From the IMG/VR virus record IMGVR_UViG_3300032132_000248, positions 6,895 through 70,894 of that record: a stretch of 64,000 nt of DNA; one strand, written 5' to 3'. Below are positions 3,259 to 18,649 of the stretch, piece by piece. The stretch is from a virus. A model generated the notes under the pieces. That model was not told the DNA's origin. It saw only the letters and a program-made list of their open reading frames with translations, and did no database searches. Every line of letters begins with the position of its first letter. Position 1 is the stretch's first letter. A program made the position numbers and the translations under genes.

Positions 3259-4482
3259 CTAAAAAGTTAATAACCCTAAAATTTGATTTACTGGTGCAAA
3301 TGCGCCAGTGAATTTGTAAACTTTACCTTTATACTTAAATACAATTCCTTCTGATGGAACTATAGAATCTAACCCGCCTATTGAATTTAATTTACTTACT
3401 TGTAGTTTTAATGCTTCCAATTTCTTAATATCTTTGGCGGTTTTTACTTTAGCTATTGCTCCAATTACATTCTTTCTTATTTTTTGTACTGCATCATCTG
3501 GAGATGCGGCTAAGTATCCACTGATATTTTTTAAAATTTCAGTTCCTACTGCAAAAAATAAAACTTCAAAAGGCCTCATATTTTGTTTTACCATTTTTTG
3601 ATGATCTACCTTATCTGTAGTTAATACCCAATCCAAAAAATCAGGATATTTCTTAAAATCTTTTTTAATCATTGGTATTTTATATGATTTATCAAAGAAT
3701 GCCCAACGTTTTACTAAAGATTTATATGCTTTATTTGTTATTTTTACTCTAAATTGTTTTTCTGCGTTAAAAATAAATTCTTCCCAATACCTTTGATGGT
3801 AAAGTGCTAAAGTATCTTTATCTTTTAATGCATATTCTTTTTGTAATTTACTTAACCTACTTAAAAAAGTTTTCTTCTTAGCATCAAAGTTTTGTGATTT
3901 AGGAACACTTAAAAATTGTGGTTTACCAATTTTATAATGTTTTTGTATATGTTGATTAACTTGTTTAATCATACCAGCTAACATTCTTGCAGACCCTTTA
4001 GGCTGTCCTATAGGATTTCCACTATCATCATATTCTAAAGTACCGTGAAATACTATTTGTGCTTTATCATAATCTATGACATTTGATGACTTAGGCCACA
4101 TAACTTCGAGATTCATCCATCTCTTACCATTACCAAAAACCTTTTCCTTTTGAGCATCCGATAACGCTCCTATAGATTTACTTAAATCTTTCATTGCAAA
4201 AACAAATGCATTTTTAATATCACCCCTACCTGCAAATTTAGAAGCAACACCTTTAGTAGTCATAGCCTTTTCACCAAAATTCTTTAATTGTCCTTTATTT
4301 CTGGCTGTAACTAATTTTCCATCTTTCCAACTAATCATTAAATTTTGACCATCTAATTTTTCTGTAACACCATCTTCTCTATTAAGATTTCCGCCTAATC
4401 CATCAGTAATTATTTTCTTTAAATCTCCAAATGTCAAATCTTTATCATCAAATGGATGATTCATATGTCCATATGCTCCACC
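3259..4482 (-). other. Domain: covalent nucleotidyltransferase (RNA ligase-like, DUF6267-like)
   Basis: GGAYGHMNHPFD start, motif I TEKLDG, ARNK, motif III NLEV, motif IV SEGIVF, motif V YKFTG. Confidence 0.65.
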
Positions 4483-7400
4483 TTCAATTAATAAATCTAA
4501 ATCCTCAACTATTGATATTTTTTCAGACAAACTTTTTACATATTTTTTAGCCGCCTTATCTCCTTTATTTTTAGCCACCCATTGAACTGCACTTTTACGA
4601 CTTATTGTTTTCTTTCTACCTTTTGGATTGGGGTTTTTTACTGTATCAGGTGCGTTCGCCATAAACTTTCCTGCATCTTTCTTTTCTGCATCTGATTTCT
4701 TTTGTTTCCGAGCTTTATATGCTCTATAAGCCCCAAATGAAACTCCCGCCGCCATTGTTCCAACACGACCAAAAGCTTTTACATAAGGTGCTGTCAACCC
4801 TGTCGCTGCTCCCACTGCAGTTAATACTAAAAACTTAGTTCCCATTTCACCACTAAATAACTGTGCAAATGAAACATCTCCAACCGCCGCCGCTGTCGCT
4901 GCAGCTGATAAATCTAAATCATATTCTGGGTCTCCGATAAAAGTCATCTTTGTCCATGCGTAAGTTACCGCTGCTGCCGCACCTATACCCATTACTCTTT
5001 TTAGTTTTGGATGTTCTCTGAGATAATTATCTAATTTAACTAAAGACTTTTCTTTCTTTTGCCCAAATTTAGTTGTTGCTAATTTCTGTGCTATCTTATC
5101 AGGTACATAATTAATAATTTTTTGATATGCTTTAAATCCTTTCTTAGCGCCCTCAAATACTTTATCCACACTAAAATCATTTAATTTAGCAACAGAAAAA
5201 GTATTCTTATTCATCATAGACTTTCTAACTTTAGATAATGGTTGTTTTGCCCTTTTAGACCAATCTTTTAGAAAGTTATTAAACTTGACTCCCTCTTCTA
5301 AAGTCATACCTTCTATTATAACCGATTCTGTTGCAGATTCTTGTTTCTTCCATCCACCTACAACATCGCCCATTGAATATGAGTGTGATGCACCTGGTGT
5401 TACTATAGCAACAGTTTTGCCATCAGATTCTATTTCTTTTATTTTTTTATCCATTTGAATATCACGAGCTTTATTGAAAGATTTAGCTGATTTTCCAGCT
5501 TTACCTTTAACTAAACTACTTAAATGGTCTTTACCATATTTCTTTTCTGCCCATTTAAAATCTTTATGTCCAGACTCAAAATCACCAGGATATGACATTA
5601 GATATAATAATTGTTTATCAGCTTCGTAATCTGCATCACCCTCTAATGATTCAACTTCTCCATTACCTGATCCTGGTGGAAATCCACCTTTATACCCAGC
5701 ATCTCTTAATGCTTTTTTATTTTGTTTAGTTAATTTATCTGCGGGAACAGAATCCTCATCACCTTGACCAAACATATTTGCAAACATAAAAGCCTGTTCT
5801 TCCTCTTTTATATTTCCTGTTTCGTCTGCGATTTGGTCATATATTGGCGCGTCTGGATTTGATATATCTGAATTTTCTCCATCCCAAGTTTTTACACAAT
5901 CTATTTTATCACCAAACTCTTTCTTTAATTCTTTAACTATATATTCTTGTTCATCTCCACCACCACCTGCAAATGGATCATCATCACTTTTACCACCTTC
6001 AGTCAAAAAACAAACTTTCTTTTTTGCATCTAATGCATCTTTTACTTTCTGTTTTACTTCAGGAAGTACCTTATTCTCTATTGCCCAATTTTTTGAATGT
6101 TCTATAGCATAAATATCCGTATCTTGTTCTTCATCATATACCTTATGACCATGATTTGTTCCAATTATACTACTTCCACCCTCTGTTTGATGTATATAAT
6201 TGTCTCTCCAACGATTTTCTTTAAAACCTTCCTCTGTGTTATCTCCAAAATCTGGAGCATTATCATAATCTTTATAATTTAGATTAAAAGGATCTCTTTC
6301 TTTTTTACCTGATGGATTATCTGGTTCTACATTTTTAGAAGTTTTATGTTTACTTATATAATCTTGTTGAGCGTCTACCGACTTATCCGTCCAGTATTCT
6401 TCGCCAGCTTCTTTTAACAATTCTTTATTCCACCACTCTTTTGAAAACAACTTTGATTCTTTTAAATCAGTATTTTCTGTTTCATCATCTGCTCCAGGTA
6501 ATACTGGTTCTTGTACTTGTACTTTTAACACATTATCTTCTAAACCTAACCACTTAATAACTTCAAATCCTAAATTAGACAATACAAAATTTAATCTTTC
6601 TTTATACTTGTTATGTAAATTACGTTCACTCTGTCTACCCTTTATTCCTACAGTTCCATAAGAAGGTGTTGGCATAAATCTATAATTTAATGTATAATCA
6701 AAAGCTGGGTCATGTGCTTCATCAGCAAGCATATAATTTAAAACTGTCCATCCTGTTTCTTTAAAAATAGAATCTAACCACTCAGTAGATCCTTTTTTAT
6801 AATCGCCAAAACCTTTATAATAATGAGCGGGCCCATCATCTATAGGAGCATTAGTCTGAAAAGTTGCTTCATTCAAATATTTTGATACATCTACATCTAC
6901 TAAAAATTCATTTATAAGTTCTTTTGTTATTACAACATTTTCACCAAATAATTTACTAAATTTATTAGTCATCATATTATAAACACCTTTATCAAAATAA
7001 CCAAAGAATTTTTTAAATCTCCGTTCCCTATCATCTGCATACTTTGGTGAACCTAGTAATTGTCTCATAGCAGTACCACTTACTTCCATACCACCTGCCT
7101 GTATAGAAAAATGTGGAGCGGTTAAAATATATCCATGTTTATTATGACCCACTAAATTTTTCTTATTCTTTTTATAATCTTGATAATAAGTTTTTTCGCC
7201 ACCCTTTTTTGTACCACCAGATAATCTATCAGCATCTTTCTTTCCAAAAATATAAACTACTGCAGTAGTATCTTCTGTAAACTTTTTAAGTGTATTTACC
7301 GCGACATATGGTTGTCTTTCTTTAACAATTTTATTAGATGGAATTCCCATTTTAAGCATATGTCGTTTCTTCTCTTTAAAATTCATTGGATGTTTAGGTG

Positions 7401-10400
7401 GTTTTTTGATGTCTGATGTAGTTATATACGCATCATCAAATTGTTTCTTCATCCACTCATATACTTTTTTATGATGAGGTCCAAATGGTTGAAACCTACC
7501 TGCATATATTCCTACTATTTTTTTAATCTTTGAAGTTTCCTCTTTAAATAATTTATCAGCTTTCCAAATATCTTTTGGATCTTGTGCCATATCTAAAACT
7601 TGTATTCTAGCTTTCGTAACTCCATGTTTTGCTGTTAATATTTTTATTATCTTTTTAGCTTCGGAATGAGATTTGGCTTTTGTATAAAGTATATCTTCTT
7701 GTCTCTTACCTGGAGGAATACCCCAAATTACAAATTCTTTTTTACTTTCATTAATATTTTCACCAAGTAATCTTAATAATTGTGTCATTACTAATGGATT
7801 GTTAGAAAGAAATGTTTGTAATTTACTTATATTCTTAGCATAATTTTTTGGTAATACGTTTTTATCAATTAATGTTTTCAATGCCTTTTTCATCTTTGGT
7901 TTATTTACAAATTCCAAAATAAAATCTTCATCAACTTTTAAACCACCCGTATCCATTTTATCACTAAATTTTTTCAATTTATCATAAGACCTAAATTGTT
8001 TTAACTTTCTTTGTTTTGCTATCTTCATGACATCTACATTCTTAACTCTCATATGTTGTTTTACTATATAATAAATATCAACTGGATTACCACCCATTGA
8101 TTTAATCCACGTACGATATTTCTTAACTAATTTAGCAGAAACATGTTCATGTCCATAATGAGTTGGATGTCCTTTTTTTGGATGAATGCCTGCGGTTTCA
8201 TCTTTACCTATATCGTGGAATAATGCAGCCAGTGCCAAATCTATATCACCTGGATTCAATTTCATTGCTCTATTAACTACAGTTATAGTATGTTTTAAAA
8301 CATTACCCTCTGGATGAGCATCTTTTCTCTGCGTTACCTTTTTTAAATCCATTACTCTCTTTTTTAAATCAGATGGTAATGCAGTATATAAATCTCTGAA
8401 TGATTTAATTGGTCTAATTGCTATTTCATTTAAAAATTTCTCTTTCTCCTTTGTTTTTATTGCTTTACCTATTTCAGGCCCTTTTAAATCTTTAGAAACA
8501 TCTTTACTACCAACAGATAATTTAAATTTAGCCATCTTTACAACATCTGACTCATTACCAATTAATTTTCCATATTCCTTTATTTGAGCAATTGTTAAAT
8601 TTGTTTTTTCTTGAAACTTCTTAAACATATAAATTTCTTCTGATTTAAAATTCTGTAAAGATACTAAAAATAATACATTTGTAGATTCCTTAACTGTATA
8701 TCGCATGGAATTTAATTTATTACCTAATTTACCAGGATTATTATCTTTTAACAAATATGCAAGTTGTACTATATAATCTTTAGAATTTATAAATTTTTTA
8801 TTTATGCTAAGTCCTGGCAATATTTGTTGTAACATTCCAAGATTATTAGCCAATTGAAGATATTTCTTTGGTGATTTTGCTTTAATCAAACTCTTTACAA
8901 ATTCTTCTCTAATTCTTTCACTACTTACTCCATTTAAACTTGGGTTTTTCTTTAATGCTGCAAATGTATCTACATGCATCGTTCCACCAAGTGCTGCATT
9001 AAATCGTAGTGCTCGTAGTTTTCTTAATGGGTCTTCATCGAATCTTTCATCTGCTAATCCTACTGTACGAACTTGTTTCTTTTTTAAATCTTTAATTCCA
9101 CCTACCAAATCTACTATAGTATTTTTATCAATATCATAAAATAAAGCATTGATAGTAAGATCTCTACGTTTAACATCTCCTTTTATATCAGTAAAATCTA
9201 CCGCATCTGGTCTCCTACCTTTACCAATATCTTTTCTGAATGTAGCAATCTCATGTCCATTAACCATAACAACACCAAAAGATTTTCCAACTTCTACTGT
9301 TTTAAATTTACCTTGTTTTGCAATAGCTAATACTTCGTCTGGTTTGGCGTCAGTTGCCATATCAAAATCTTTTGGACTTTTACCCAAGATGGCATCTCTC
9401 ACAGCTCCACCTACCACATAAAGTTGTTTTCTATTCTTTTTAAATAACTTATGTATTTTTTTTATATCTGCTGGTATATTTAATTTTAATTTTTGTTTAG
9501 CTTCATCTATCGTACGATATTGGTCATCTTCTCTTTCTTTATCTAATTTTTTCTTGATTTTCCTAACTTTTTTAGGATCGGGTGCACCAGATATAGTTCC
9601 ATCTCCAGCAGTTATTCCAATAAACTCTTTAACAATTTTTTGTTTTTCAATCCACTTTTTAGCTTGTCTGCTTTTTATTGGTTTTTTAATAAATTTACCA
9701 ATACCCTTTTTCACCAACATATTAAACTTTTTCTGTGCTTGTTTTGGATTTAAAGTAGCATTATTATCAACTAACATAAAATTAGAACCACCAAACATCC
9801 CTTGAAAATATGCCATATTTTTTTGTACATTATTCCAATATTTTTCTACAAGTTCAGAAGGTAAAATTCTATCTCTTAATTTATTTCTCATTTGTGCAAC
9901 TTCTAATGAGGTATTTACAAATACCATATAGGTATCATAACCTAAATCAATCAATTTTTGTCGTTCTTTCTTAACATCTTTAAATTTATGACCAGTTCCA
10001 TCTATAATAACTCCAAGTCTACCTTGTGAATATAACTTTAATCTTTGTTTACTCAAGGCTTTAGCATGTTTTCTAACACCCATATGTGCACTATAACTTG
10101 GGTCTGTAATCTGTCTAAATAAATCATCTGGCATATTATCTAAATCCGTTGTACCAAAGTATTTTTTCAGAAAATTTTCTAATTCTGTATCTTGATTAAC
10201 AAGTTTTAATCCATAAGCAGAAACATTTACTTTATCTGGTATTCCAAACAATCCACCAGCAACATATGACTTTCCACTTCCAGGACCACCTGCAAGAAAA
10301 ACTGCTTTAAATATACCTGGGTCATTTACTCCTTCTCTAATAGAACGATTTAATCTACCATAAACCCGCTTCTGTCGCTTTCTCATACCCAACCCTGTAG

Positions 10401-10650
10401 GTATCCAATTTTTAGGCCACTCTTCAGTAACTTCTTCTTTATCAAAAATATTAGTTTTGGGCATTAATCTGAACTTTAAAGCTGGTCTACCGTTTATTAG
10501 TAAATCACCTTTTTCATTCCAATCTATTTTCTTAACGACTACCTTTTTGTTTTTAAATTTTCCCATCTTGACTGTATCACCAATCTCTATAGGTAAATCT
10601 ACACTCTCATCCAAAAAAGGTTTAGTTAACCATTCAGTTAATTTATCCAT
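3259..10650 (-). CDS. 2463-aa multidomain (poly)protein: P-loop kinase, CCA-adding enzyme, HD hydrolase, HIGH nucleotidyltransferase, TraB/Tiki-like, membrane-helix and KxDG ligase-like domains
   Basis: GGPGSGKS; GGAVRD...DFD...RRDLTINA...EDPLRKLRALRF; HT...LFHDIGK...H...H; GRFQPFGPHH...SGTAMR; GTNH...E...RDxxM...GASH; EKLDG...EGIV...YK. Confidence 0.85.
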   Translation of the reverse strand: MDKLTEWLTKPFLDESVDLPIEIGDTVKMGKFKNKKVVVKKIDWNEKGDLLINGRPALKFRLMPKTNIFDKEEVTEEWPKNWIPTGLGMRKRQKRVYGRLNRSIREGVNDPGIFKAVFLAGGPGSGKSYVAGGLFGIPDKVNVSAYGLKLVNQDTELENFLKKYFGTTDLDNMPDDLFRQITDPSYSAHMGVRKHAKALSKQRLKLYSQGRLGVIIDGTGHKFKDVKKERQKLIDLGYDTYMVFVNTSLEVAQMRNKLRDRILPSELVEKYWNNVQKNMAYFQGMFGGSNFMLVDNNATLNPKQAQKKFNMLVKKGIGKFIKKPIKSRQAKKWIEKQKIVKEFIGITAGDGTISGAPDPKKVRKIKKKLDKEREDDQYRTIDEAKQKLKLNIPADIKKIHKLFKKNRKQLYVVGGAVRDAILGKSPKDFDMATDAKPDEVLAIAKQGKFKTVEVGKSFGVVMVNGHEIATFRKDIGKGRRPDAVDFTDIKGDVKRRDLTINALFYDIDKNTIVDLVGGIKDLKKKQVRTVGLADERFDEDPLRKLRALRFNAALGGTMHVDTFAALKKNPSLNGVSSERIREEFVKSLIKAKSPKKYLQLANNLGMLQQILPGLSINKKFINSKDYIVQLAYLLKDNNPGKLGNKLNSMRYTVKESTNVLFLVSLQNFKSEEIYMFKKFQEKTNLTIAQIKEYGKLIGNESDVVKMAKFKLSVGSKDVSKDLKGPEIGKAIKTKEKEKFLNEIAIRPIKSFRDLYTALPSDLKKRVMDLKKVTQRKDAHPEGNVLKHTITVVNRAMKLNPGDIDLALAALFHDIGKDETAGIHPKKGHPTHYGHEHVSAKLVKKYRTWIKSMGGNPVDIYYIVKQHMRVKNVDVMKIAKQRKLKQFRSYDKLKKFSDKMDTGGLKVDEDFILEFVNKPKMKKALKTLIDKNVLPKNYAKNISKLQTFLSNNPLVMTQLLRLLGENINESKKEFVIWGIPPGKRQEDILYTKAKSHSEAKKIIKILTAKHGVTKARIQVLDMAQDPKDIWKADKLFKEETSKIKKIVGIYAGRFQPFGPHHKKVYEWMKKQFDDAYITTSDIKKPPKHPMNFKEKKRHMLKMGIPSNKIVKERQPYVAVNTLKKFTEDTTAVVYIFGKKDADRLSGGTKKGGEKTYYQDYKKNKKNLVGHNKHGYILTAPHFSIQAGGMEVSGTAMRQLLGSPKYADDRERRFKKFFGYFDKGVYNMMTNKFSKLFGENVVITKELINEFLVDVDVSKYLNEATFQTNAPIDDGPAHYYKGFGDYKKGSTEWLDSIFKETGWTVLNYMLADEAHDPAFDYTLNYRFMPTPSYGTVGIKGRQSERNLHNKYKERLNFVLSNLGFEVIKWLGLEDNVLKVQVQEPVLPGADDETENTDLKESKLFSKEWWNKELLKEAGEEYWTDKSVDAQQDYISKHKTSKNVEPDNPSGKKERDPFNLNYKDYDNAPDFGDNTEEGFKENRWRDNYIHQTEGGSSIIGTNHGHKVYDEEQDTDIYAIEHSKNWAIENKVLPEVKQKVKDALDAKKKVCFLTEGGKSDDDPFAGGGGDEQEYIVKELKKEFGDKIDCVKTWDGENSDISNPDAPIYDQIADETGNIKEEEQAFMFANMFGQGDEDSVPADKLTKQNKKALRDAGYKGGFPPGSGNGEVESLEGDADYEADKQLLYLMSYPGDFESGHKDFKWAEKKYGKDHLSSLVKGKAGKSAKSFNKARDIQMDKKIKEIESDGKTVAIVTPGASHSYSMGDVVGGWKKQESATESVIIEGMTLEEGVKFNNFLKDWSKRAKQPLSKVRKSMMNKNTFSVAKLNDFSVDKVFEGAKKGFKAYQKIINYVPDKIAQKLATTKFGQKKEKSLVKLDNYLREHPKLKRVMGIGAAAAVTYAWTKMTFIGDPEYDLDLSAAATAAAVGDVSFAQLFSGEMGTKFLVLTAVGAATGLTAPYVKAFGRVGTMAAGVSFGAYRAYKARKQKKSDAEKKDAGKFMANAPDTVKNPNPKGRKKTISRKSAVQWVAKNKGDKAAKKYVKSLSEKISIVEDLDLLIEGGAYGHMNHPFDDKDLTFGDLKKIITDGLGGNLNREDGVTEKLDGQNLMISWKDGKLVTARNKGQLKNFGEKAMTTKGVASKFAGRGDIKNAFVFAMKDLSKSIGALSDAQKEKVFGNGKRWMNLEVMWPKSSNVIDYDKAQIVFHGTLEYDDSGNPIGQPKGSARMLAGMIKQVNQHIQKHYKIGKPQFLSVPKSQNFDAKKKTFLSRLSKLQKEYALKDKDTLALYHQRYWEEFIFNAEKQFRVKITNKAYKSLVKRWAFFDKSYKIPMIKKDFKKYPDFLDWVLTTDKVDHQKMVKQNMRPFEVLFFAVGTEILKNISGYLAASPDDAVQKIRKNVIGAIAKVKTAKDIKKLEALKLQVSKLNSIGGLDSIVPSEGIVFKYKGKVYKFTGAFAPVNQILGLLTF
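5340..6408 (-). other. Domain: TraB/PrgY/Tiki (EreA/ChaN-fold)-like
   Basis: IIGTNH ... VCFLTEG ... ARDIQMDKKI ... VAIVTPGASH match the GTxH / E / RxxxM / GAxH order of the family. Confidence 0.55.
6940..7536 (-). other. Domain: HIGH-superfamily nucleotidyltransferase (cytidylyltransferase/NMNAT/PPAT-like)
   Basis: IVGIYAGRFQPFGPHH, HPMNFKEK, FGKKD, VSGTAMR. Confidence 0.75.
7927..8424 (-). other. Domain: HD phosphohydrolase of the type associated with CCA enzymes/PNKP
   Basis: QRKDAHPEGNVLKHT...ALFHDIGK...HYGHEHVS...VKQHM. Confidence 0.85.
8425..9501 (-). other. cca: Domain: class II CCA-adding / poly(A) polymerase family tRNA nucleotidyltransferase
   Basis: Motif A VGGAVRD..LG..PKDFD, motif B RRDLTINAL, motif D EDPLRKLRALRF, motif E SSERIREE, tail KGPEIGKAI. 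Confidence 0.9.
9625..10332 (-). other. Domain: P-loop kinase (zeta-toxin/AAA_33/polynucleotide kinase-like)
   Basis: KAVFLAGGPGSGKS, LVNQD, VIIDGTG, MVFVNTSLEVAQMRNKLRDR (lid RxxxR). Confidence 0.8.
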
Positions 10651-10675: not shown

Positions 10676-11170
10676 CTATACTTCCAACGCACGTCTAAAC
10701 CACCCAAACAAAAATCTTTCCTGCTCAGGTTTTCTCGCTACTAAATCCATATAATATTTAACTCTATAGCAACGAACTCTATCTAATTCGGGGGTATGTT
10801 TTGCTAATGCTGCCTTTGTTCCAGGTCCAAAACCACCATCAACTGTTAACTTACCACCTTTACCATTTATTGCTCTCTGTAATATTTTGACTGCCGAACC
10901 TCTTCCCTGATTGACTGCCATATCAAAGAATATATGTTTTAAGTTTTCTGGTAAGTCATCTACCTTATTCTTATCCCAATAGTCTTTTTTATAAATATCT
11001 TTTGCCTGCTCTTTGGTTAAATTTTTAATATCTACATCTGGATAAAATCTTTTTGCGATTCCAAAATTAGTTTCCCCGCCTAAATCTTTTGGATCATTAA
11101 CGTAACCGCCTTCGTGTTCTAATGTTAATTCAATTATCTCGTCAAATGACGTTAAAACTTCTTCTCGCAT
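10676..11170 (-). CDS. Endolysin, glycoside hydrolase family 108 with peptidoglycan-binding segment
   Basis: EHEGGYVNDPKDLGGETNFGI, FDMAVNQG, VDGGFGPGT, FLFGWFRR. Start at 11170 has an AGGAG RBS (the track starts at 11257). Confidence 0.9.
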   Translation of the reverse strand: MREEVLTSFDEIIELTLEHEGGYVNDPKDLGGETNFGIAKRFYPDVDIKNLTKEQAKDIYKKDYWDKNKVDDLPENLKHIFFDMAVNQGRGSAVKILQRAINGKGGKLTVDGGFGPGTKAALAKHTPELDRVRCYRVKYYMDLVARKPEQERFLFGWFRRALEV

Positions 11171-11261
11171 TGTATTGCTCCTACTATTTTGATCTGTTTC
11201 AATATTGCTTTTTTTAAACAATGAAATCAAAAATTCTATTATTTTACGTAATTCCATTACT

Positions 11262-12989: not shown

Positions 12990-13355
12990 CTACATTCCTC
13001 TAGATTTTCTAATTTTCATAGATTTAGCACGTTTCTTCAAAATTTTTGACATTTTACGTTTTCTTTTAATTGCCGCCTTTTTTGCTCCTCTTCTTTTTCT
13101 AAATTTTTCAGCTCCACCAACCCTAACACATTGTTTTTTTGTAGATACATACTTTTTACCTTTAGGACAAATAACTCTATATTTAGCTTTTTTACCACGA
13201 ACTACCCGTTTTCTTTTCAATTCTGATAAAAATGCCCTCATCAAATAAGACATTTCCGTATCATCATTTAATATATCTTCTGTTATTTCCTCAAAAAACC
13301 CATCTTTATAGGCTTCCCTAATAACTTCTCGTAATTGTGCTTCAGTTATTTTCAT
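12990..13355 (-). CDS. Prohead core protein (T4 gp68-like) with MKITxAQLRExIRE leader
   Basis: Very basic C-terminus RKRRGAKKAAIKRKRK...KRAKSMKIRKSRGM resembles gp68-type core proteins; head-module context. Confidence 0.55.
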   Translation of the reverse strand: MKITEAQLREVIREAYKDGFFEEITEDILNDDTEMSYLMRAFLSELKRKRVVRGKKAKYRVICPKGKKYVSTKKQCVRVGGAEKFRKRRGAKKAAIKRKRKMSKILKKRAKSMKIRKSRGM

Positions 13356-13362
13356 TTTATTT

Positions 13363-13782
13363 TTACCACACTCGGTTAATTATTGTTTGTAATTTTTTAA
13401 ATTGCATAGCTAACAACTTTAAATTCTGTTCTTCATCAAATTCTTTACTGTCCTTAACTTCATTACTTTTCCAACCCATTCCTTGACCTACATACCCTGA
13501 AAAAAACCCAGAATATGAAGTTTTTCCTTTAATAAGATGTTTTTCTATTATACCGTATGATGGATTATCTTTATGTTTCACATCAAATTTTGCCACCTTT
13601 AATGTTTTGATGTGCCCACCTTTTTCAATTGAAAATTTGTGCATTTTACCATCAACTTTTACTTTCGTCCTTTTTATTAACGCTTTTTCTTCCTTTGTCC
13701 ATTCGGCATTTTCTGTGGCTTCTTTAATAGATTGAATTTCTTCCCTAATGATTTCTCGTAATTGTGCTTTAGTTATTTTCAT
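13363..13782 (-). CDS. Hypothetical internal head protein with MKITKAQLREIIREE leader
   Basis: Likely start is ATG 13782, just after the upstream stop; leader nearly identical to that at 13355 at protein and DNA level. Confidence 0.65.
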   Translation of the reverse strand: MKITKAQLREIIREEIQSIKEATENAEWTKEEKALIKRTKVKVDGKMHKFSIEKGGHIKTLKVAKFDVKHKDNPSYGIIEKHLIKGKTSYSGFFSGYVGQGMGWKSNEVKDSKEFDEEQNLKLLAMQFKKLQTIINRVW

Positions 13783-13783
13783 T

Positions 13784-14020
13784 TTAATATCCCACTTTTT
13801 GATGTAAGCAAATTGGACAAGTTCTTGAATCATGATCTGGGTCTGTTAAATAAAGTCCTGCCTTCATAACATCCACATCTTCCTTCAGCTCAGTTACTTC
13901 ATACCTAAGCAACGAAACTTCACTTTTCAATTCATCTACGGTTGATAATACCCAACCACCCATTCCTGTTAAAATCAAGGTAGCTCCTGATAAAATTATA
14001 TGTGATATATCCATTTTCAT
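13784..14020 (-). CDS. Small membrane protein (TM helix, coiled coil, C-terminal CxxC)
   Basis: IILSGATLILTGMGGWVL; CPICLH. Confidence 0.55.
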   Translation of the reverse strand: MKMDISHIILSGATLILTGMGGWVLSTVDELKSEVSLLRYEVTELKEDVDVMKAGLYLTDPDHDSRTCPICLHQKVGY

Positions 14021-14616
14021 TATTTATTTTCTTCAATCCAACTAGCGTTTTGTTCACAAATACCTTTTAATGTCTCCAAAGCACTAATGTATTTCTTTAC
14101 ACTACTTTTATTTACATTCTCTAAAGCATCTGATACAGGTAATTTATTTAATTCACTTAACATTTCCATAATTTTTTGATTAACAACACCTACAGCCTTC
14201 ATAGTCTGTTGTCTTTCACGAAGACTCAATGCTTTTTGTTTAAACTCTCCCTGATGGGTATCATACTCTTGTTTAAACTTTTCAACATCACTTTTAAACC
14301 CATATTCTTTAACTTTACTTTCATTAAATTTTTGTAATTCTTCTTTAATGATTTCTTTTATTTGTTCTTTAGAAACTGTTAAATTCATTTTCTTCCTTTT
14401 AGAAGATCGTTTTTGACCTACCTTTTTCTTTAATAAAGCCAATAATTTAGCATTCTTTTCTTTATCTGTATCAAAGGTTATTTCCATCCCTACTTTATCA
14501 TCCGGGAGTTGAGGTTTTATTATAGTAATCTTTACCTTCATAATTCCAGCGTCTTTAGTCATTGGTAATATTGTTTTTTTCATAAAATCTATATTACCTT
14601 TTATAGTTTGTTTCAT
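14020..14616 (-). CDS. Hypothetical protein with internal leader-like motif (SKEQIKEIIKEELQKFNE)
   Basis: ORF track; start adjusted to MKQTIKG after the upstream stop. Confidence 0.6.
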   Translation of the reverse strand: MKQTIKGNIDFMKKTILPMTKDAGIMKVKITIIKPQLPDDKVGMEITFDTDKEKNAKLLALLKKKVGQKRSSKRKKMNLTVSKEQIKEIIKEELQKFNESKVKEYGFKSDVEKFKQEYDTHQGEFKQKALSLRERQQTMKAVGVVNQKIMEMLSELNKLPVSDALENVNKSSVKKYISALETLKGICEQNASWIEENK

Positions 14617-14617
14617 T

Positions 14618-14944
14618 TCATTTCCCCTTAAACGAATCAATAGCTCTAAAAACTGGCATCTGATTCTTCAATTTCTTAATTTTTGATTCAACCCTACTAA
14701 ATTCTTTTTGAACATTTACTAAATCTTTATATAATTTATTTAAAAGTTTATATTCTTTATCCCCCTTCATTCCTTCTCTTTCCATCAAACTTAACATTTC
14801 AACTAAAGAATTAACAAGTAAATGCTGTCTATGTGAATTAGTTGGTACAGCATTAAACATATCATAATGCATATCCAACTGTCTCCGTTGCCAATCAAAA
14901 TTTGGATTTTTACTTTCAATTATTAATTTTTTTAGTTTAATCAT
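14618..14944 (-). CDS. Hypothetical protein with MIKLKKLIIE leader
   Basis: ORF track; leader shared with MIKLKDLIKE at 15167. Confidence 0.6.
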   Translation of the reverse strand: MIKLKKLIIESKNPNFDWQRRQLDMHYDMFNAVPTNSHRQHLLVNSLVEMLSLMEREGMKGDKEYKLLNKLYKDLVNVQKEFSRVESKIKKLKNQMPVFRAIDSFKGK

Positions 14945-14945
14945 C

Positions 14946-15443
14946 TTACATTCTCATATATTTAGCAAAATCTTTAGCACCTTCAATATATCCCAACATT
15001 TCTTTTTTATCTACACCTTTAAAATGTCCACTCTTAATTACAAGTCTTAATATTGCAGCAGCATTTTTATTTTTATGTTTCATTACTAATCCCTGCAATA
15101 TATCTGCTTGATCTTTAGATAATATACCCATTCCACCTTCTTTAATTAAATCTTTTAACTTAATCATTTTACTCTCTTTTTTAACTTTCTTTTTCTTTTT
15201 ATCATCAAGTTCCTTACCACTTCGTGAGTGAGAATGTTGAGATTCATCAACTGGTTTCAAATGTTTAACACTTACATTTTCATAAACCCTACTACCAAAT
15301 TTAATATTTACAAATTCTACTTTACCATTTTCCGTTAGTGAATGCCAAGTTACTTCACCAACACCTTTATTTTCATACTTGGGTGACCCCCAAGTTGCGT
15401 GGTGAAATCATGTATGTTGTATTGATTTATTATATTTATCCAT
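14946..15443 (-). CDS. Candidate selenoprotein (165 aa, in-frame UGA at codon 12), His-rich N-terminal domain fused to a MIKLKDLIKE module
   Basis: ATG 15443: MDKYNKSIQHT-UGA-FHHATWGSPKYENKGVGEVTWHSLTENGKVEFVNIKFG... continues in frame into track ORF 14946..15260; a SECIS-like hairpin follows the UGA. Confidence 0.65.
15371..15410 (-). promoter_or_regulatory. Bacterial-type SECIS element
   Basis: mRNA UGA-UUUCA-CCACGCA-ACUUGGG-GGUCA-CCCAAGU-A-UGAAA: perfect 7-bp upper stem 12 nt after UGA, GGUCA loop, 5-bp lower stem. Confidence 0.65.
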
Positions 15444-15444
15444 T

Positions 15445-15717
15445 TTATTTACCACTATGTTTAATTTCTGTTTCTAAAAATACCTTCAATGCATTACGAT
15501 TATATAATGCTGAGTGAGCTTTTTCTACTTCTCCCTTACGAATATACTTAGACACTTCAGTAACAAACCTCTGAATACTTTTTTGCATTTGTTTTCTAGT
15601 CATTACACCATATCCAGGTATCTGTACTTTTGCATCCAAAGGGGACTCCACACCTTTTTTTGGCACAGTTATCTGTGCTTCCTTCAAATTTTTAAGTAAT
15701 GATTTTAAACTAATCAC
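15445..15717 (-). CDS. Hypothetical protein with ISLKSLLKNLKE leader
   Basis: ORF track; GTG start overlaps the upstream TGA. Confidence 0.6.
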   Translation of the reverse strand: MISLKSLLKNLKEAQITVPKKGVESPLDAKVQIPGYGVMTRKQMQKSIQRFVTEVSKYIRKGEVEKAHSALYNRNALKVFLETEIKHSGK

Positions 15718-16412
15718 TTCAATTCTGTCCAATCTTTTGGATTACTATATCGTGATTTATAATACCATTTTTTATCTTTCACAGACCAAACATACCCGTA
15801 TTCTTCACCACTATTAAATTTTACTGCATCCCTATTTTTCCAAGTCTTTGAAAAATTACCTTTCTCGCCTCTATCACGTCCATAAAATACTGTTTGACCG
15901 TCTACTGGTTCAGAAAATGAATGATCTTTTGCGCCACTAATATCCTTATCAATTGAAGAAATACCTTGTTTTCCAAGCTTTAATAACTTTTTTATTTTTG
16001 ATGGATTTTTATAATGTTTTTTCAACATTTTACCAACGTGTTCAGGATATCCATCCCAATGCCCATATACTGATGCTATTTTACCACTCGGTGCTTCAAT
16101 ACCCACCAACCAACGAGTTCCTTCAGTTAATACTGACTTAAGTTCTTCTTTAATTATTTCTTTTAATTGTGATTTAGTTATTTTCATAGGAACTTCCTCT
16201 TTATATAATGATTTCCACTTACCATCTACTTTTTCTATTATATTAAAAACACTATTGCTATTATTCTCATAAGCAATAGCGATAACATTTTCCCCTAATT
16301 TCTTATATGTCTTAACAGTATAAGGATTCTTATACGGGTGGTCAAATTCTGACTCAGACTCCTTCTTATATGTACGAAATTTATCTGATTGCGCCTTTAC
16401 ACCAGATTTCAT
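15714..16412 (-). CDS. Conserved phage protein (GTR...YxHWDGYP...YGRDRGE family) preceded by an internal MKITKSQLKEIIKEE leader
   Basis: Start 16412 (GGAG RBS); second in-frame ATG at 16187 with GAGGA RBS; motif VYGHWDGYPEHVG. Confidence 0.7.
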   Translation of the reverse strand: MKSGVKAQSDKFRTYKKESESEFDHPYKNPYTVKTYKKLGENVIAIAYENNSNSVFNIIEKVDGKWKSLYKEEVPMKITKSQLKEIIKEELKSVLTEGTRWLVGIEAPSGKIASVYGHWDGYPEHVGKMLKKHYKNPSKIKKLLKLGKQGISSIDKDISGAKDHSFSEPVDGQTVFYGRDRGEKGNFSKTWKNRDAVKFNSGEEYGYVWSVKDKKWYYKSRYSNPKDWTELK

Positions 16413-16448
16413 ATTAATCACTCCAATTTTAATGATAAGTACTCTATG

Positions 16449-16457
16449 TATAAATAT
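16449..16457 (-). promoter_or_regulatory. Putative promoter motif ATATTTATA
   Basis: In the gap separating the glycan island from the head-protein cluster. Confidence 0.45.
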
Positions 16458-16466
16458 ATATAATAT

Positions 16467-17426
16467 CTATTTTATACTGTTCATTTGTTTTTCAATCCAC
16501 TTATAAGTTTTTTCAATACTAACTCGTAATGGTTGTGTTGGACTCCAACCAAGTTTTTCATTTATCAAGGTATTATCTGAATTTCTACCTCTAACACCAA
16601 GTTGTGGTACATCTATATTATTAATACTAACATCTTTTTCGGAAATATCTATAATCATTTGTGCAAAATCATTAATAGAAAGAACTTCATCTGAACCAAG
16701 ATTTAATGGTTCTATACACTCCGATTTCATCAATAGTCTAATTCCTTCAATACATTCGTCAATATAAAGAAATGAACGAGTTTGTTGTCCATCTCCATAA
16801 ACTTCTATTTTCCCATTGGATTCAATTACCTTCCTACATAGTGCCGCTGGTGCTTTTTCTCTACCACCATCATATGTTCCTTCTGGACCAAATATATTAT
16901 GAAATCTTGCTATTCTTACATCAAAATCATAATTCTTTGCATATGCTAAATATAACCTCTCACTAAAAAGTTTCTCCCAACCATATTCAGAATCAGGATT
17001 GCCAGGGTATGCCATATCTTCTCTTAATGCGGGAACATCAACTTCTAATTGATGATCTTCAGGATACATACAAGCAGATGATGAATAGAATACTTTCTTC
17101 ACTCCGTGTCTTTTCATAGAATCTACTATATTGAGATTTATCATCGCTGAATTGTGCATTATATCTGAATCATTCTCACCCGTAAAAATAAAATCAGCTC
17201 CACCCATATCTGCTGCTAACTGATATATCTCATCAACTCCATCTACACACATATCTACAACAGATAATTTTCTTAAATCATCTTTAATAAATACATCTGC
17301 TTCTGATTCACTAAACTCAGGATATTTTAAATCGACTCCACGAACAAAATAACCTTCTTTTTTTAATATTTTAACTAAATGTGAGCCTATAAATCCACCT
17401 GCCCCACAAACTAATGCTTTTTTCAT
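16467..17426 (-). CDS. NAD-dependent epimerase, GDP-mannose 3,5-epimerase-like
   Basis: GAGGFIG, QLAADMGG, SSACMYP, PDSEYGWEK, GGREKAPAALCRK. Confidence 0.85.
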   Translation of the reverse strand: MKKALVCGAGGFIGSHLVKILKKEGYFVRGVDLKYPEFSESEADVFIKDDLRKLSVVDMCVDGVDEIYQLAADMGGADFIFTGENDSDIMHNSAMINLNIVDSMKRHGVKKVFYSSSACMYPEDHQLEVDVPALREDMAYPGNPDSEYGWEKLFSERLYLAYAKNYDFDVRIARFHNIFGPEGTYDGGREKAPAALCRKVIESNGKIEVYGDGQQTRSFLYIDECIEGIRLLMKSECIEPLNLGSDEVLSINDFAQMIIDISEKDVSINNIDVPQLGVRGRNSDNTLINEKLGWSPTQPLRVSIEKTYKWIEKQMNSIK

Positions 17427-18649
17427 TTATTCATCTCTCTTTTCTTTTCTATATCCTTAAATAACTTTATTATTATTTTTTCTATATCTATATTATGTAA
17501 TATTTTACAGTTATGTCTTATTTTAGGTATTATTGAAACATATATTTTATGTAATTCTTCATCATCCATATCACAAAGTTTCTTAACTTCCTTATATATA
17601 AAATCAATTCTTTCATAATTATCTTCTATATCATCATAACTTTCATCAAACATTTCAGGAAAAGTTTTGAATCCCAGACTTCTAATATATTTTAGTATAC
17701 CACACCCACCAATAATTATAAAAGGATGAAATGATATAGCCTTGTAAATTTTTTCTGTTATCTTACAAGGATTATCTTTAAAAAATGGAAGCATCTCTGC
17801 TTCAGTTACCAGACTAAAATATGATTTTTTAAGATTTAAAATATAATCTTTATTAACTAACATTGAATTTGTAAAATAAATAGGATTTTTAAAATCATCC
17901 GAACTCATATCAAATGTTATTGGTAGTTTACTTATAGTTCTACTAATAGACTTTTCATCAATACTTTTAGAAAATTCTTTTAAGTCTGATAACATTTTAT
18001 CTTCTGAATCATTACACTTATTTACCATAGATATCATAGATTTCTTATCCAATTCTCCATCTAATATTTTACTAATTATCAATAATCTCTGGGGTGTAGA
18101 AGTAGCATTTAAACATATAAATCTATGTGTCTTTTTATACTCAGACAAATCTTTAAAATAAAAATCATCCACATCATCTAAAACTTTTGGTACATACAAT
18201 GCACATTCAACAAGTTGTTGGTCAAACCCAACTTCTTTATTATACTTTTTTCCAAGATTCATTGTTATAAAAACTATATCTATATCTAAATTATATTTAC
18301 TTATTTTTTGTATTATACTTGATACATCAAATTCATTGATAAGTTCACCTCCCCTATCAATAACTAATTTTATTTTACCTCGTGATAACTCTTTCAATAT
18401 TTTTTCATCAAATACAATATTCGTTTCTAAAATATCATTATAAGAAAGTAGGAATAAATACAAATTATCTTCGGATACATCAAATTCTTCAAGTTTTATT
18501 AACTCTTTTATATTTGGCGATTCATCATTATTTTGAATACCTATCATTTTTACATATTCTATTTCTTCGGTATTTGAAAATAGTTGATTATCGAGCATTA
18601 AATAACCGAAAAAGTGGCCACTATCACCACATACAATAATCTTCTTCAT
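17423..18649 (-). CDS. Putative GT-B/GT10-like glycosyltransferase (paralog family A)
   Basis: SYFSLVTE...ITEKIYKAI..HPFIIIG...GFKTF...FDESYD. Confidence 0.5.
   Translation of the reverse strand: MKKIIVCGDSGHFFGYLMLDNQLFSNTEEIEYVKMIGIQNNDESPNIKELIKLEEFDVSEDNLYLFLLSYNDILETNIVFDEKILKELSRGKIKLVIDRGGELINEFDVSSIIQKISKYNLDIDIVFITMNLGKKYNKEVGFDQQLVECALYVPKVLDDVDDFYFKDLSEYKKTHRFICLNATSTPQRLLIISKILDGELDKKSMISMVNKCNDSEDKMLSDLKEFSKSIDEKSISRTISKLPITFDMSSDDFKNPIYFTNSMLVNKDYILNLKKSYFSLVTEAEMLPFFKDNPCKITEKIYKAISFHPFIIIGGCGILKYIRSLGFKTFPEMFDESYDDIEDNYERIDFIYKEVKKLCDMDDEELHKIYVSIIPKIRHNCKILHNIDIEKIIIKLFKDIEKKREMNK

What the first reader, a model, noticed from the sequence alone, without database searches (positions are those of the whole stretch)
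14946..15443. Candidate phage-encoded selenoprotein with a bacterial SECIS hairpin
Seen: an ATG right after the upstream stop opens MDKYNKSIQHT, then TGA (15408-15410), then 49 more sense codons in frame into the 104-aa track ORF, filling an otherwise unexplained 185-bp gap. Directly 3' of the UGA lies a perfect stem ACUUGGG/CCCAAGU with a GGUCA loop, starting 12 nt after the UGA, plus a UUUCA/UGAAA lower stem. Known: bacterial SECIS elements such as E. coli fdhF sit just after the UGA with a GU-containing apical loop bound by SelB. Inference: this is a Sec-containing, His-rich (H-T-U-F-H-H, WHSL, HSH) redox or metal-binding domain in a virion cargo protein. It would imply a Sec-decoding host.
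Basis: partly seen in the sequence, partly recalled or inferred. Interest (0 to 1): 0.85.

Follow-up and report, generated by a model that had tools for sequence, protein, structure and literature searches.

The report
Phage gene likely encoding selenocysteine
A small gene of this uncultured marine phage runs through an internal UGA "stop" that every close relative keeps, where distant relatives have cysteine, and an RNA hairpin of the bacterial selenocysteine-insertion type follows it, so it most likely encodes a selenoprotein, which I found reported for no virus of bacteria.

Summary
ATG 15443, eleven codons, TGA 15408-15410 (minus strand), then 153 open codons to TAA 14946. A 7-bp hairpin begins 12 nt after the UGA.

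The UGA is not an error, a pseudogene or a code change. It is present in all 33 IMG/VR and all 72 true metagenome homologs. Independent DNA contigs and one RNA-library contig carry it. It is the only such case in the window, where TGA ends 21 of 57 long ORFs.

The "Trp" in database homologs comes from code-4 gene calls; the DNA checked reads TGA.

Distant relatives have Cys in that column: 24 of the 47 profile hits I read (36 cover the column; the other 12 show W). Eight distinct DNA sequences read TGT or TGC there.

The hairpin meets the published bacterial SECIS model. Its synonymous sites are frozen (Thr ACT and Gly GGG, 79 of 79 each). A second UGA subfamily keeps it in the same register with three compensatory pairs. 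The Cys forms lack it.

Best reading: a new phage-encoded selenoprotein family with an H-x-U-x-x-H motif on an SH3-like barrel, confidence about 0.8.

Not shown: the host and its Sec machinery, selenium incorporation, and function. This scan noted what looks like the same family on another genome (e1-5319761).

The parts
14946..15443 (-). Whole recoded gene: 165 codons including UGA at codon 12, plus TAA stop (14946-14948)
   Evidence: In all 80 distinct homolog sequences this frame has exactly one stop in 82 codons, the TGA. The other two frames average 5.2 and 14.2 stops.
15411..15443 (-). Start codon and 11 pre-UGA codons (MDKYNKSIQHT), one base after the upstream ORF's TAA
   Evidence: D2, Y4, N5, S7 and H10 are invariant in 79 sequences while their codons vary (for example Ser TCA 40, TCT 21, TCC 17, TCG 1). 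This shows protein-level selection in frame with the downstream part.
15408..15410 (-). In-frame UGA, proposed Sec codon 12
   Evidence: TGA in 33 of 33 IMG/VR loci and in 72 of 72 true homologs among 119 metagenome pattern hits. Aligned with invariant Cys of distant homologs. Identical in independent contigs of runs X10 and X12 and of RNA run X15.
15377..15395 (-). SECIS-like hairpin: 7-bp stem, loop GGUCA, 12-nt spacer after the UGA, first loop G 20 nt after the UGA
   Evidence: Criteria taken from PMC13188914, PMC4605307 and PMC8659212.
15216..15443 (-). N-terminal Sec/His domain (aa 1-76): H-x-U-x-x-H, then a five-strand SH3/Tudor-like barrel, ending in H-x-H
   Evidence: Alignments A3 and A4: H10, U/C12, H34, H70 and H72 invariant, H15 nearly so. 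AlphaFold2 model pLDDT 70.5, five strands. Only weak Tudor/SH3 fold matches. No Pfam family.
15168..15215 (-). Lys-rich linker (KELDDKKKKKVKKESK)
   Evidence: a Lys-rich stretch follows the domain in the homologs printed (45 of 84 distinct tails).
14949..15167 (-). C-terminal body (aa 93-165) beginning with an internal ATG and the leader-like motif MIKLKDLIKE
   Evidence: This body occurs with other N-termini (P0020), and the Sec domain occurs with many other tails. Use of the internal ATG as a second start is inference.

Best explanation
The gene at 14946-15443 (minus strand) is one 165-codon reading frame whose codon 12, UGA, is most likely decoded as selenocysteine. The hairpin 12 nt downstream would act as a bacterial-type SECIS. 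While the UGA sits in the ribosomal A site, the hairpin at the mRNA entrance would bind the host's SelB carrying Sec-tRNA(Sec), which outcompetes release factor 2. The product has Sec in an H-x-U-x-x-H motif. With three more invariant His residues (H34, H70, H72) on a small SH3-like barrel, this probably forms a metal-binding or redox centre. The domain is joined by a Lys-rich linker to a leader-like motif and a variable tail. Shown here by computation: the UGA is conserved, Cys occupies the same column in relatives, and an RNA hairpin under selection is tied to the UGA. Inferred: decoding as Sec by host machinery, the metal or redox role, and packaging into the capsid.
For: (1) Conserved UGA. 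The search pattern did not constrain the codon before F-H-H-A-T-W-G. That codon is TGA in 33 of 33 IMG/VR loci and in 72 of 72 true homologs among 119 metagenome hits. The other 47 hits are unrelated sequences. There are 80 distinct 246-nt sequences. (2) Translation must pass the UGA. The pre-UGA peptide is under protein-level selection. No conserved start follows: the first in-frame ATG/GTG/TTG lies 14 to more than 69 codons downstream at varying places. The frame has one stop against 5.2 and 14.2 in the other frames. (3) Sec/Cys pair. A profile of 27 N-domains found 93 proteins. I read 47 of them; 36 cover the column. Of those, 24 have Cys in H-x-C-x-x-H and 12 have W (alignment A4). Cys-form DNA reads TGT or TGC in 8 distinct sequences. 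(4) The W is an artefact where checked. L103, L003/L004 and L168-L172 have TGA where P0002, P0021 and P0142 show W. (5) bSECIS model (PMC13188914 Fig. 2 legend): loop 3-9 nt (here 5), stem 4-16 bp (7), G in the first two loop positions (GG), 16-37 nt from UGA to loop (19), MFE at most -7.5 (the 60 nt from the UGA reach it in 80 of 80). PMC4605307: 6-8 bp stem, loop G about 20 nt after the UGA. (6) RNA-level selection. Thr16 is ACT in 79 of 79 and Gly18 is GGG in 79 of 79. Other Gly codons are mostly GGT/GGA and another Thr codon is mixed. Lys21 is AAG in 67 against AAA in 8, while other Lys codons favour AAA. The third base of codon 20 is C or T in 77 of 79. (7) Covariation. A second UGA subfamily (L168-L173) has a different stem in the same register with loop G-U-C at the same distance. 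Three pairs changed on both sides, 89.2% of cells pair against 34-58% when slid, and the covariation score is 0.499 against 0.293 shuffled (0 of 500). (8) The hairpin goes with the UGA. Pairs in register: 6.49 of 7 (71 Sec-A sequences), 5.8 of 7 (5 Sec-B/C), 1.75 of 7 (8 Cys forms). Local MFE: -8.4, -7.1 and -0.8 kcal/mol. (9) Not an error or a code change.
Against: No host is known, so the required selA, selB, selC and selD cannot be shown. The only host hint is a homolog on a contig binned into a MAG titled Candidatus Pelagibacter (L161). In that MAG's family selB (TIGR00475) passes its cut-off in 0 of 101 genomes (one of these, G051, is unpublished). The hint is weak, because the MAG holds two different phage terminase genes. 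No tRNA-Sec and no other tRNA was found on this 70.9-kb record. No selB was found on it. No tRNA-Sec was found on five related records. All are 26-40% complete fragments. No Rfam family matches the hairpin. Within the main subfamily there is no two-sided covariation, because the 5' arm is invariant. The three compensatory pairs separate two clades and may be few events. Cys-form DNA is only 8 sequences, 7 of them from one subgroup. There is no selenium, proteomic or reporter evidence.
Confidence: 0.8

Rival explanations
1. SelB-independent programmed read-through. The UGA is a leaky stop read by a near-cognate tRNA (Trp or another). The hairpin slows termination or tunes the yield, so the UGA acts as an expression throttle 12 codons into the gene.
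For: Database homologs display W at the position, although this is explained by gene calling. The host may lack Sec machinery if it is a SAR11-type cell. From recall: UGA is the leakiest stop in bacteria and phage Qbeta uses UGA read-through.
Against: The column is an invariant Cys in relatives, and no TGG was seen among 105 homologs. A throttle would not need to sit on a conserved Cys site. The hairpin geometry and the GG/GU loop match the SelB-binding model. I know of no hairpin-stimulated read-through in bacteria (recall).
Confidence: 0.08
2. SECIS- and SelB-dependent insertion of cysteine rather than selenocysteine, through a tRNA(Sec)-like tRNA charged with Cys or under selenium scarcity.
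For: All the RNA evidence for the best explanation fits this equally well. Cys is the ancestral residue in relatives. From recall: tRNA(Sec)-like tRNAs that carry Cys have been described in some bacteria.
Against: If Cys were the product, a TGY codon would do the job without a costly recoding signal, yet 105 of 105 homologs keep TGA. No such tRNA was found on the fragments held.
Confidence: 0.04
3. The UGA is a true stop. MDKYNKSIQHT is a short leader peptide, the hairpin is a regulatory or terminator-like element, and only the internal ATG at 15165-15167 (MIKLKDL...) gives a protein.
For: An in-frame ATG with an A/G-rich stretch before it exists at codon 93. The C-terminal body occurs without the N-domain in other proteins (P0020).
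Against: The 80 codons between the UGA and that ATG are conserved as protein: invariant H15, H34, H70, H72, G29 and G40, with free synonymous change. They contain no stop in any of 80 sequences. They are homologous to the Cys-form domain, which is translated normally.
Confidence: 0.03
4. Assembly or sequencing error, a recent nonsense mutation, or a genome-wide TGA reassignment (code 4 or 25).
For: Gene callers translated homologs with TGA=W.
Against: More than 100 independent assemblies share the TGA. Independent contigs agree. TGA ends 21 of 57 long ORFs, and only this gene carries it in frame.
Confidence: 0.01

Closest known systems
Bacterial selenoprotein genes with an in-ORF SECIS read by SelB (prototype E. 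coli fdhF)
   Same: In-frame UGA followed by a hairpin about 11-12 nt downstream. The stem has 6-8 bp. G followed by G or U sits in the apical loop about 20 nt after the UGA. Cys-containing homologs exist (for the model; for this gene).
   Different: The gene is encoded by a virus of bacteria. The protein family has no Pfam or NCBI-type annotation. The UGA is at codon 12, very near the start. I did not look for a counterpart of the bulged U17 of fdhF. The loop G-U sits one nucleotide further from the UGA than G23/U24.
Poxvirus selenoproteins (glutathione peroxidase genes of molluscum contagiosum virus and fowlpox virus; PMC8310308, passages read)
   Same: A virus carries a selenoprotein gene and relies on host Sec machinery. 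In fowlpox the SECIS also lies in the coding region.
   Different: Those are eukaryotic viruses with captured cellular GPx genes and eukaryotic SECIS elements. This is a phage gene with a bacterial-type SECIS and no cellular counterpart found.
Phage Qbeta A1 read-through protein (recalled, not checked in a call)
   Same: A phage gene translated through a UGA.
   Different: In Qbeta the UGA ends a complete coat gene, and the inserted residue does not matter. Here the UGA replaces a conserved Cys near the N-terminus and carries a SECIS-type hairpin.
T4 internal proteins with a cleavable capsid-targeting sequence (recalled; lead from scan note e1-6187929)
   Same: Neighbouring small genes, and this gene's C-terminal part, begin with a shared amphipathic leader ending in hydrophobic-x-E. 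A head maturation protease, portal and terminase lie on the same contig.
   Different: Nothing was tested. In the Sec forms the leader is internal, after the Sec domain and linker. In the Cys forms and in UGA subfamily B it is N-terminal.

Membership tests
Bacterial-type selenoprotein gene (UGA plus in-ORF SECIS) | In-frame UGA conserved among homologs, with coding conservation on both sides | tested here: met
   33 of 33 and 72 of 72 homologs have TGA. Protein-level selection acts before and after it. One stop in frame in 80 of 80 sequences.
Bacterial-type selenoprotein gene (UGA plus in-ORF SECIS) | Cys at the homologous position in other family members (Sec/Cys pair) | tested here: met
   Of the 36 profile hits read that cover the column, 24 have Cys in H-x-C-x-x-H and 12 have W (47 of 93 hits read). 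Cys is TGT or TGC in 8 distinct DNA sequences. Alignment A4.
Bacterial-type selenoprotein gene (UGA plus in-ORF SECIS) | bSECIS geometry: loop 3-9 nt, upper stem 4-16 bp, G in the first two loop positions, 16-37 nt from UGA to loop, MFE at most -7.5 kcal/mol (PMC13188914) | tested here: met
   Loop of 5 nt (GGUCA), 7-bp stem, 19 nt spacing. The 25-nt piece holding the whole window hairpin folds at -11.2 kcal/mol; a 21-nt piece with six pairs at -9.0. The 60 nt from the UGA fold at -7.5 or lower in 80 of 80 sequences.
Bacterial-type selenoprotein gene (UGA plus in-ORF SECIS) | The hairpin is selected as RNA and tied to the UGA | tested here: met
   Frozen synonymous sites. Three compensatory pairs between the UGA subfamilies. 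The hairpin is absent in the Cys forms: 1.75 against 6.49 of 7 pairs.
Bacterial-type selenoprotein gene (UGA plus in-ORF SECIS) | selA, selB, selC and selD available in the cell where the gene is expressed | not testable with these tools
   The host is unknown. No tRNA of any kind on this record, no selB on it, no tRNA-Sec on five related fragments. selB passes its cut-off in 0 of 101 genomes of the family of the MAG that holds L161.
Bacterial-type selenoprotein gene (UGA plus in-ORF SECIS) | Selenium in the protein at the UGA position | not testable with these tools
   Needs 75Se labelling or mass spectrometry.
Genome-wide stop-codon reassignment (NCBI table 4 or 25) | TGA used as a sense codon across many genes and not as a stop | tested here: not met
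   TGA ends 21 of 57 ORFs of 100 codons or more. Only one frame shows a TGA-preceded extension.
Programmed stop-codon read-through of the Qbeta type | A leaky stop at the end of a complete gene gives a C-terminal extension, and the identity of the inserted residue is unimportant | tested here: not met
   The UGA is at codon 12 of 165. It aligns with an invariant Cys in relatives.
Known selenoprotein or protein families (Pfam, PHROGs) | A significant match to a curated family | tested here: not met
   No Pfam family for P0002 or for five Cys/W forms and one long Cys-form protein. The Cys forms match only PHROGs families of unknown function, phrog_11470 and phrog_22379, plus phrog_764 at a weak level.
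T4-type capsid-targeted internal protein | A cleavable targeting leader and presence in the virion | not tested
   Only the leader-like motif and the nearby head genes were seen.

The most novel reading that the evidence does not exclude
Abundant marine phages encode their own selenoprotein family, in which Sec repeatedly replaced a Cys of a His-rich metal or redox centre. The domain is delivered with, or cleaved from, capsid-packaged cargo proteins. Because the UGA lies at codon 12 and an internal AUG with a leader follows, selenium or SelB availability in the infected cell could switch the output between a full Sec-domain fusion and the bare cargo protein. That would be a selenium-sensing translational switch in a virus.
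Probability: 0.2. Interest if true: 0.92.

Novelty: new variant of a known kind. Interest (0 to 1): 0.85.

Why it matters
Selenoprotein surveys rely on bacterial genomes and on Sec/Cys pairs. The reviews and databases I searched do not mention phages, and a review of viral recoding names only two poxviruses.

A widespread phage-encoded selenoprotein family would have several consequences:
- It would extend Sec use to viruses of bacteria.
- It would mark the hosts of an abundant uncultured marine phage lineage as Sec-decoding cells, which is a usable host clue.
- It would add a new H-x-U-x-x-H Sec site for selenium biochemistry.
- It would show that routine gene calling hides such genes, either by truncating them or by printing W.

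It also makes a concrete experiment possible, since the UGA-hairpin cassette is only about 70 nt long.

Tried and rejected
- **Cultured relatives.** tblastn of the protein against 50,697 phage records found nothing. blastn of 13000-17500 matched only the neighbouring epimerase gene.
- **Rfam.** A scan of 15250-15500 at E up to 10 gave only two chance hits.
- **Covariation within subfamily A.** The count is uninformative, because the 5' arm never varies and the shuffles equal the observed values. I therefore looked for a second UGA subfamily.
- **P0205.** No relatives in IMG/VR, so its W stays unverified. So do the W of P0125, P0144 and P0204.
- **C-A-T-H-V-K-E pattern.** It found no family member in IMG/VR. 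Cys-form DNA is therefore limited to the H-D-C-P-K-H-V subgroup plus L174.
- **Fold search.** Foldseek against the PDB gave no match at E up to 0.001; the weak hits are Tudor/SH3-like.
- **Host test through selB.** 0 of 101 genomes in the family of the MAG holding L161 pass the cut-off. I treat this as inconclusive, because that MAG carries two phage terminases and binning is weak host evidence.
- **tRNA-Sec or suppressor tRNA.** None on the phage fragments. The fragments are 26-40% complete, so this is no proof of absence.
- **Reads.** Parts of the stretch had no cover in runs X12, X15 and X18. I draw nothing from that. X15 is an RNA library but may hold DNA, so transcription is not shown.
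- **Paper supplements.** They are closed. Dataset S2 of PMC2398784 lists the sequences of hypothetical families GOS_A and GOS_B and could not be seen. I cannot exclude that reads of this family are listed there.
Full report
**What is there**

On the minus strand an ATG at 15441-15443 lies one base after the TAA of the upstream ORF. It opens MDKYNKSIQHT, followed by TGA at 15408-15410. The frame then runs for 153 more codons to TAA at 14946-14948. Ordinary ORF calling sees only a 104-aa ORF from a TTG at 15260. Forty-nine codons without any ATG, GTG or TTG lie between the TGA and that TTG. Among the 60 stop-to-stop frames of 80 codons or more on this strand, no other has such a TGA-preceded, start-less extension.

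The window has 28.7% G+C. It is densely coded on the minus strand and uses TGA as the stop of 21 of 57 ORFs of 100 codons or more. TGA is therefore not reassigned genome-wide.

The stem ACUUGGG/CCCAAGU with loop GGUCA sits at 15377-15395, 12 nt after the UGA. A 21-nt piece with six of its pairs folds at -9.0 kcal/mol, and a 25-nt piece with the whole hairpin at -11.2.

**The record**

The window belongs to a 70,894-base IMG/VR virus record that CheckV rates 26% complete. It carries no tRNA gene. The same contig carries a large terminase, a portal and a head maturation protease.

The terminase is 54% identical to that of Microcystis phage Mel-JY01 and 53% to Flavobacterium phage immuto. It is about 32% identical to cyanomyophage terminases. 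The phage is therefore a distant T4-like marine phage without a cultured close relative. The gene itself has no match in 50,697 phage records.

**The Trp trap**

A protein search returned full-length homologs of 165-167 aa with W at the UGA position (P0002, P0003, P0006, P0011, P0014, P0017). The DNA says otherwise.

I scanned IMG/VR with a pattern for F-H-H-A-T-W-G that leaves the preceding codon free. All 33 matching loci have TGA there. Of these, 72 are true homologs and all 72 have TGA. The other 47 are unrelated sequences.

The N-domain part of L103 that I printed reads exactly as P0002 except for TGA in place of W. L003 and L004 do the same for P0021. The W therefore comes from gene callers that applied a TGA=Trp table to short AT-rich contigs. 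No TGG, TGT or TGC was seen in this subfamily.

**The UGA is translated through**

I compared 79 distinct sequences.
- The eleven codons before the UGA are conserved as protein while their codons vary. D2, Y4, N5, S7 and H10 are invariant, and Ser7 uses four codons.
- After the UGA the conserved domain starts at once with F-H-H-A-T-W-G.
- The first possible in-frame start lies 14 to more than 69 codons downstream, at varying places.
- The frame has exactly one stop, the UGA, in 82 codons in all 80 sequences. The other frames average 5.2 and 14.2 stops.

The TGA is not an assembly error.
- A 1,699-nt contig of an independent DNA run (X10) covers 14980-15800 without a difference.
- A contig of a second DNA run (X12) covers 15317-15467 without a difference.
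- A contig from a metatranscriptome library (X15) covers 15275-15440 without a difference. An RNA library can contain DNA, so I do not claim transcription.

**Sec/Cys pair**

A profile of 27 diverse N-domains (A3) was searched against 1.84 billion representative proteins and gave 93 hits. I read 47 of them. Thirty-six cover the UGA column.
- 24 have Cys there, in the motif H-x-C-[A/P]-x-H. Examples are P0139, P0156, P0174, P0190 and P0199.
- 12 have W. Eight of these belong to the window's own subfamily.
- None has any other residue.

In the joint alignment H10, U/C12, G29, H34, L36, E38, G40, L62, H70 and H72 are invariant, and H15 nearly so (A4). At DNA level the Cys is TGT or TGC in eight distinct viral sequences of 30-35% G+C.

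One W subfamily could be checked. Relatives of P0142 in IMG/VR (L168-L172), and also L173, have TGA. P0125, P0144, P0204 and P0205 remain unchecked.

**The hairpin as SECIS**

A 2026 review gives the consensus bacterial SECIS model (PMC13188914, passages read). Its criteria are an apical loop of 3-9 nt, an upper stem of 4-16 bp, a G in one of the first two loop positions usually followed by G or U, 16-37 nt between UGA and loop, and MFE at most -7.5 kcal/mol.

A structural paper describes a 6-8-bp stem with the conserved loop G about 20 nt after the UGA (PMC4605307). Another review places the E. coli element 11 nt from the UGA, with G23 and U24 in the loop (PMC8659212).

This gene has a 7-bp stem, a 5-nt loop beginning GGU, 19 nt between UGA and loop, and a 12-nt spacer. 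The 60 nt from the UGA fold at -7.5 or lower in 80 of 80 sequences. Rfam has no matching model.

**RNA-level selection**

Within the main subfamily 93.2% of stem cells pair, against 16-57% when the partner is slid. No pair changes on both sides, because the 5' arm, which encodes Thr-Trp-Gly, never varies. That invariance is itself informative.

| Site | In the hairpin | Comparison elsewhere in the domain |
|---|---|---|
| Thr16 | ACT in 79 of 79 | Thr36: ACA 34, ACT 15, ACC 6, ACG 4 |
| Gly18 | GGG in 79 of 79; its last two G open the loop | three other invariant Gly: GGT/GGA, with GGG in 0, 1 and 6 of 79 |
| Lys21 | AAG 67, AAA 8 | other Lys codons prefer AAA |
| Third base of codon 20 | C or T in 77 of 79; both pair with G | two Ser codons carry A in 35-40 of 79 |

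Amino-acid changes Ser-Pro to Asp-Ser or Ser-Ser keep the stem through G-U pairs.

**Independent confirmation**

The second UGA subfamily has the protein context H-N-U-A-T-H-M-E-W-K. Its leader is at the N-terminus and its UGA at codon 36 or 39. It carries a different stem, AGUGGAA/UUCCACU, in exactly the same register, with loop G-U-C at the same distance.

On the joint alignment of 15 sequences:
- three pairs changed on both sides (C-G to A-U, U-A to G-C, G-C to A-U);
- 89.2% of cells pair, against 34-58% when slid;
- the covariation score is 0.499, against 0.293 in shuffles (0 of 500 reach it).

These changes separate two clades, so they may represent few events.

The Cys forms lack the structure.

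| Group | Distinct sequences | Pairs in register (of 7) | Local MFE (kcal/mol) |
|---|---|---|---|
| Sec subfamily A | 71 | 6.49 | -8.4 |
| Sec subfamily B/C | 5 | 5.8 | -7.1 |
| Cys forms | 8 | 1.75 | -0.8 |

**The protein**

AlphaFold2 with the 27-row alignment gives a five-strand barrel with mean pLDDT 70.5. Foldseek finds only weak Tudor/SH3-like matches, none at E up to 0.001. No Pfam family matches. The Cys forms hit PHROGs families of unknown function.

The invariant H-x-U-x-x-H, H34 and H-x-H suggest a metal or redox centre. This is inference.

The domain is modular. It is followed by a Lys-rich linker and then by many different tails. The window's tail starts with an internal ATG and the motif MIKLKDLIKE. 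Neighbouring genes share this leader-like motif at their N-termini (scan note e1-6187929). Packaging into the capsid was not tested.

**What speaks against, and what is missing**

The host is unknown.
- One homolog lies on a contig binned into a MAG titled Candidatus Pelagibacter. In that MAG's family selB passes its cut-off in 0 of 101 genomes (G051 among them is unpublished).
- The MAG contains two distinct phage terminases, one 74% identical to this phage's. The binning probably reflects composition rather than infection.
- No tRNA-Sec and no selB were found on the phage fragments held. They are 26-40% complete.
- No experiment supports selenium incorporation.

**Literature**

Searches for selenoprotein, bacteriophage and SECIS, for selenocysteine, phage genomes and in-frame UGA and for bSECISearch listed no paper whose title or abstract start reports a phage-encoded selenoprotein.
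- The words phage and virus do not occur in the 2026 review, the BSepDB paper or the deep-Sep paper.
- The GOS selenoproteome paper has no 'phage'.
- A marine trace-element survey says the selenoprotein families it examined have few or no viral sequences.
- A review of viral recoding names two poxviruses.

I read passages only. Supplements were closed, so the sequences of families GOS_A and GOS_B could not be compared.

**Earlier notes of this scan**

Several notes report other phage Sec candidates. Note e1-5319761 describes an H-x-U-x-x-H candidate in a marine T4-like phage on another genome, with about a hundred relatives keeping the UGA and Cys in distant relatives. This looks like the same family. 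My tests were run independently of it and agree.

**Verdict**

The mechanism is a known kind, bacterial SECIS-directed Sec insertion. The setting and the protein family are new. Confidence in Sec decoding is about 0.8. The main open point is a Sec-competent host.

Noticed in passing
proteins P0002, P0003, P0021, P0039, P0050, P0142 and others: Public protein collections hold these genes translated with W at the UGA, evidently from gene callers using a TGA=Trp table on short AT-rich contigs. Other entries start just after the UGA. Either way the recoding is hidden, and a Trp in such 'homologs' is not evidence against Sec.
   Followed up: yes
L168-L173: In the second UGA subfamily an in-frame AUG lies four codons after the UGA (A-T-H-M-E-W-K). 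Standard gene calls start there (P0158, P0160, P0163, P0179, P0191, P0200). A UGA-independent shorter product lacking the H-x-U motif is therefore conceivable.
   Followed up: partly
window 15168-15215 and homolog tails: The Sec domain is fused through a Lys-rich linker to many unrelated tails. These include short ...KRIGGK or ...INGKRYR ends, a tail of about 60 aa ending ...YPSAYANAWAAKQYKAAGGGWKKG, and a Cys-rich CxxC tail. Total lengths run from 86 to 366 aa among the 74 ORFs that end inside their locus (84 distinct).
   Followed up: partly
window 12990-16421: A run of small genes shares a leader-like motif (MKITKxQLKEIIKEE or MIKLKxLIxE), sometimes internal after an N-terminal module. The Cys forms of the domain carry the same kind of leader at their N-terminus.
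   Followed up: partly
window 15411-15419 (codons 8-10 before the UGA): Gln8 is CAA in 77 of 78 and His9... more exactly His10 is CAT in 74 of 79, while three other His codons in the domain are nearly evenly CAC/CAT. This suggests selection on the nucleotides just upstream of the UGA.
   Followed up: no
L167:1070-2086 (outside the window, same contig, next to the head protease): A 338-aa acidic protein carries a D-I-D-N-D-G-D...D-E-Y-L motif. P0192 has the same motif in front of a Cys-form domain. This links the domain family to head-module proteins.
   Followed up: no
G001 (the MAG holding L161), contigs C6 and C3: A MAG titled Candidatus Pelagibacter contains two different phage terminase genes, 74% and 45% identical to this phage's. 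The bin therefore collects phage contigs.
   Followed up: partly
window 3259-10650: A 2463-aa ORF matches tRNA nucleotidyltransferase and ATPase PHROGs families. It lies between the endolysin gene (10676-11257; Glyco_hydro_108 plus a peptidoglycan-binding domain) and the terminase.
   Followed up: no
window 14900-15800 in public runs: Near-identical DNA is held by 14 runs at half or more of the sampled words; the 20 runs holding any of it come from 14 studies of marine metagenomes. Six RNA libraries hold 14-40% of the words. The phage is widespread.
   Followed up: partly
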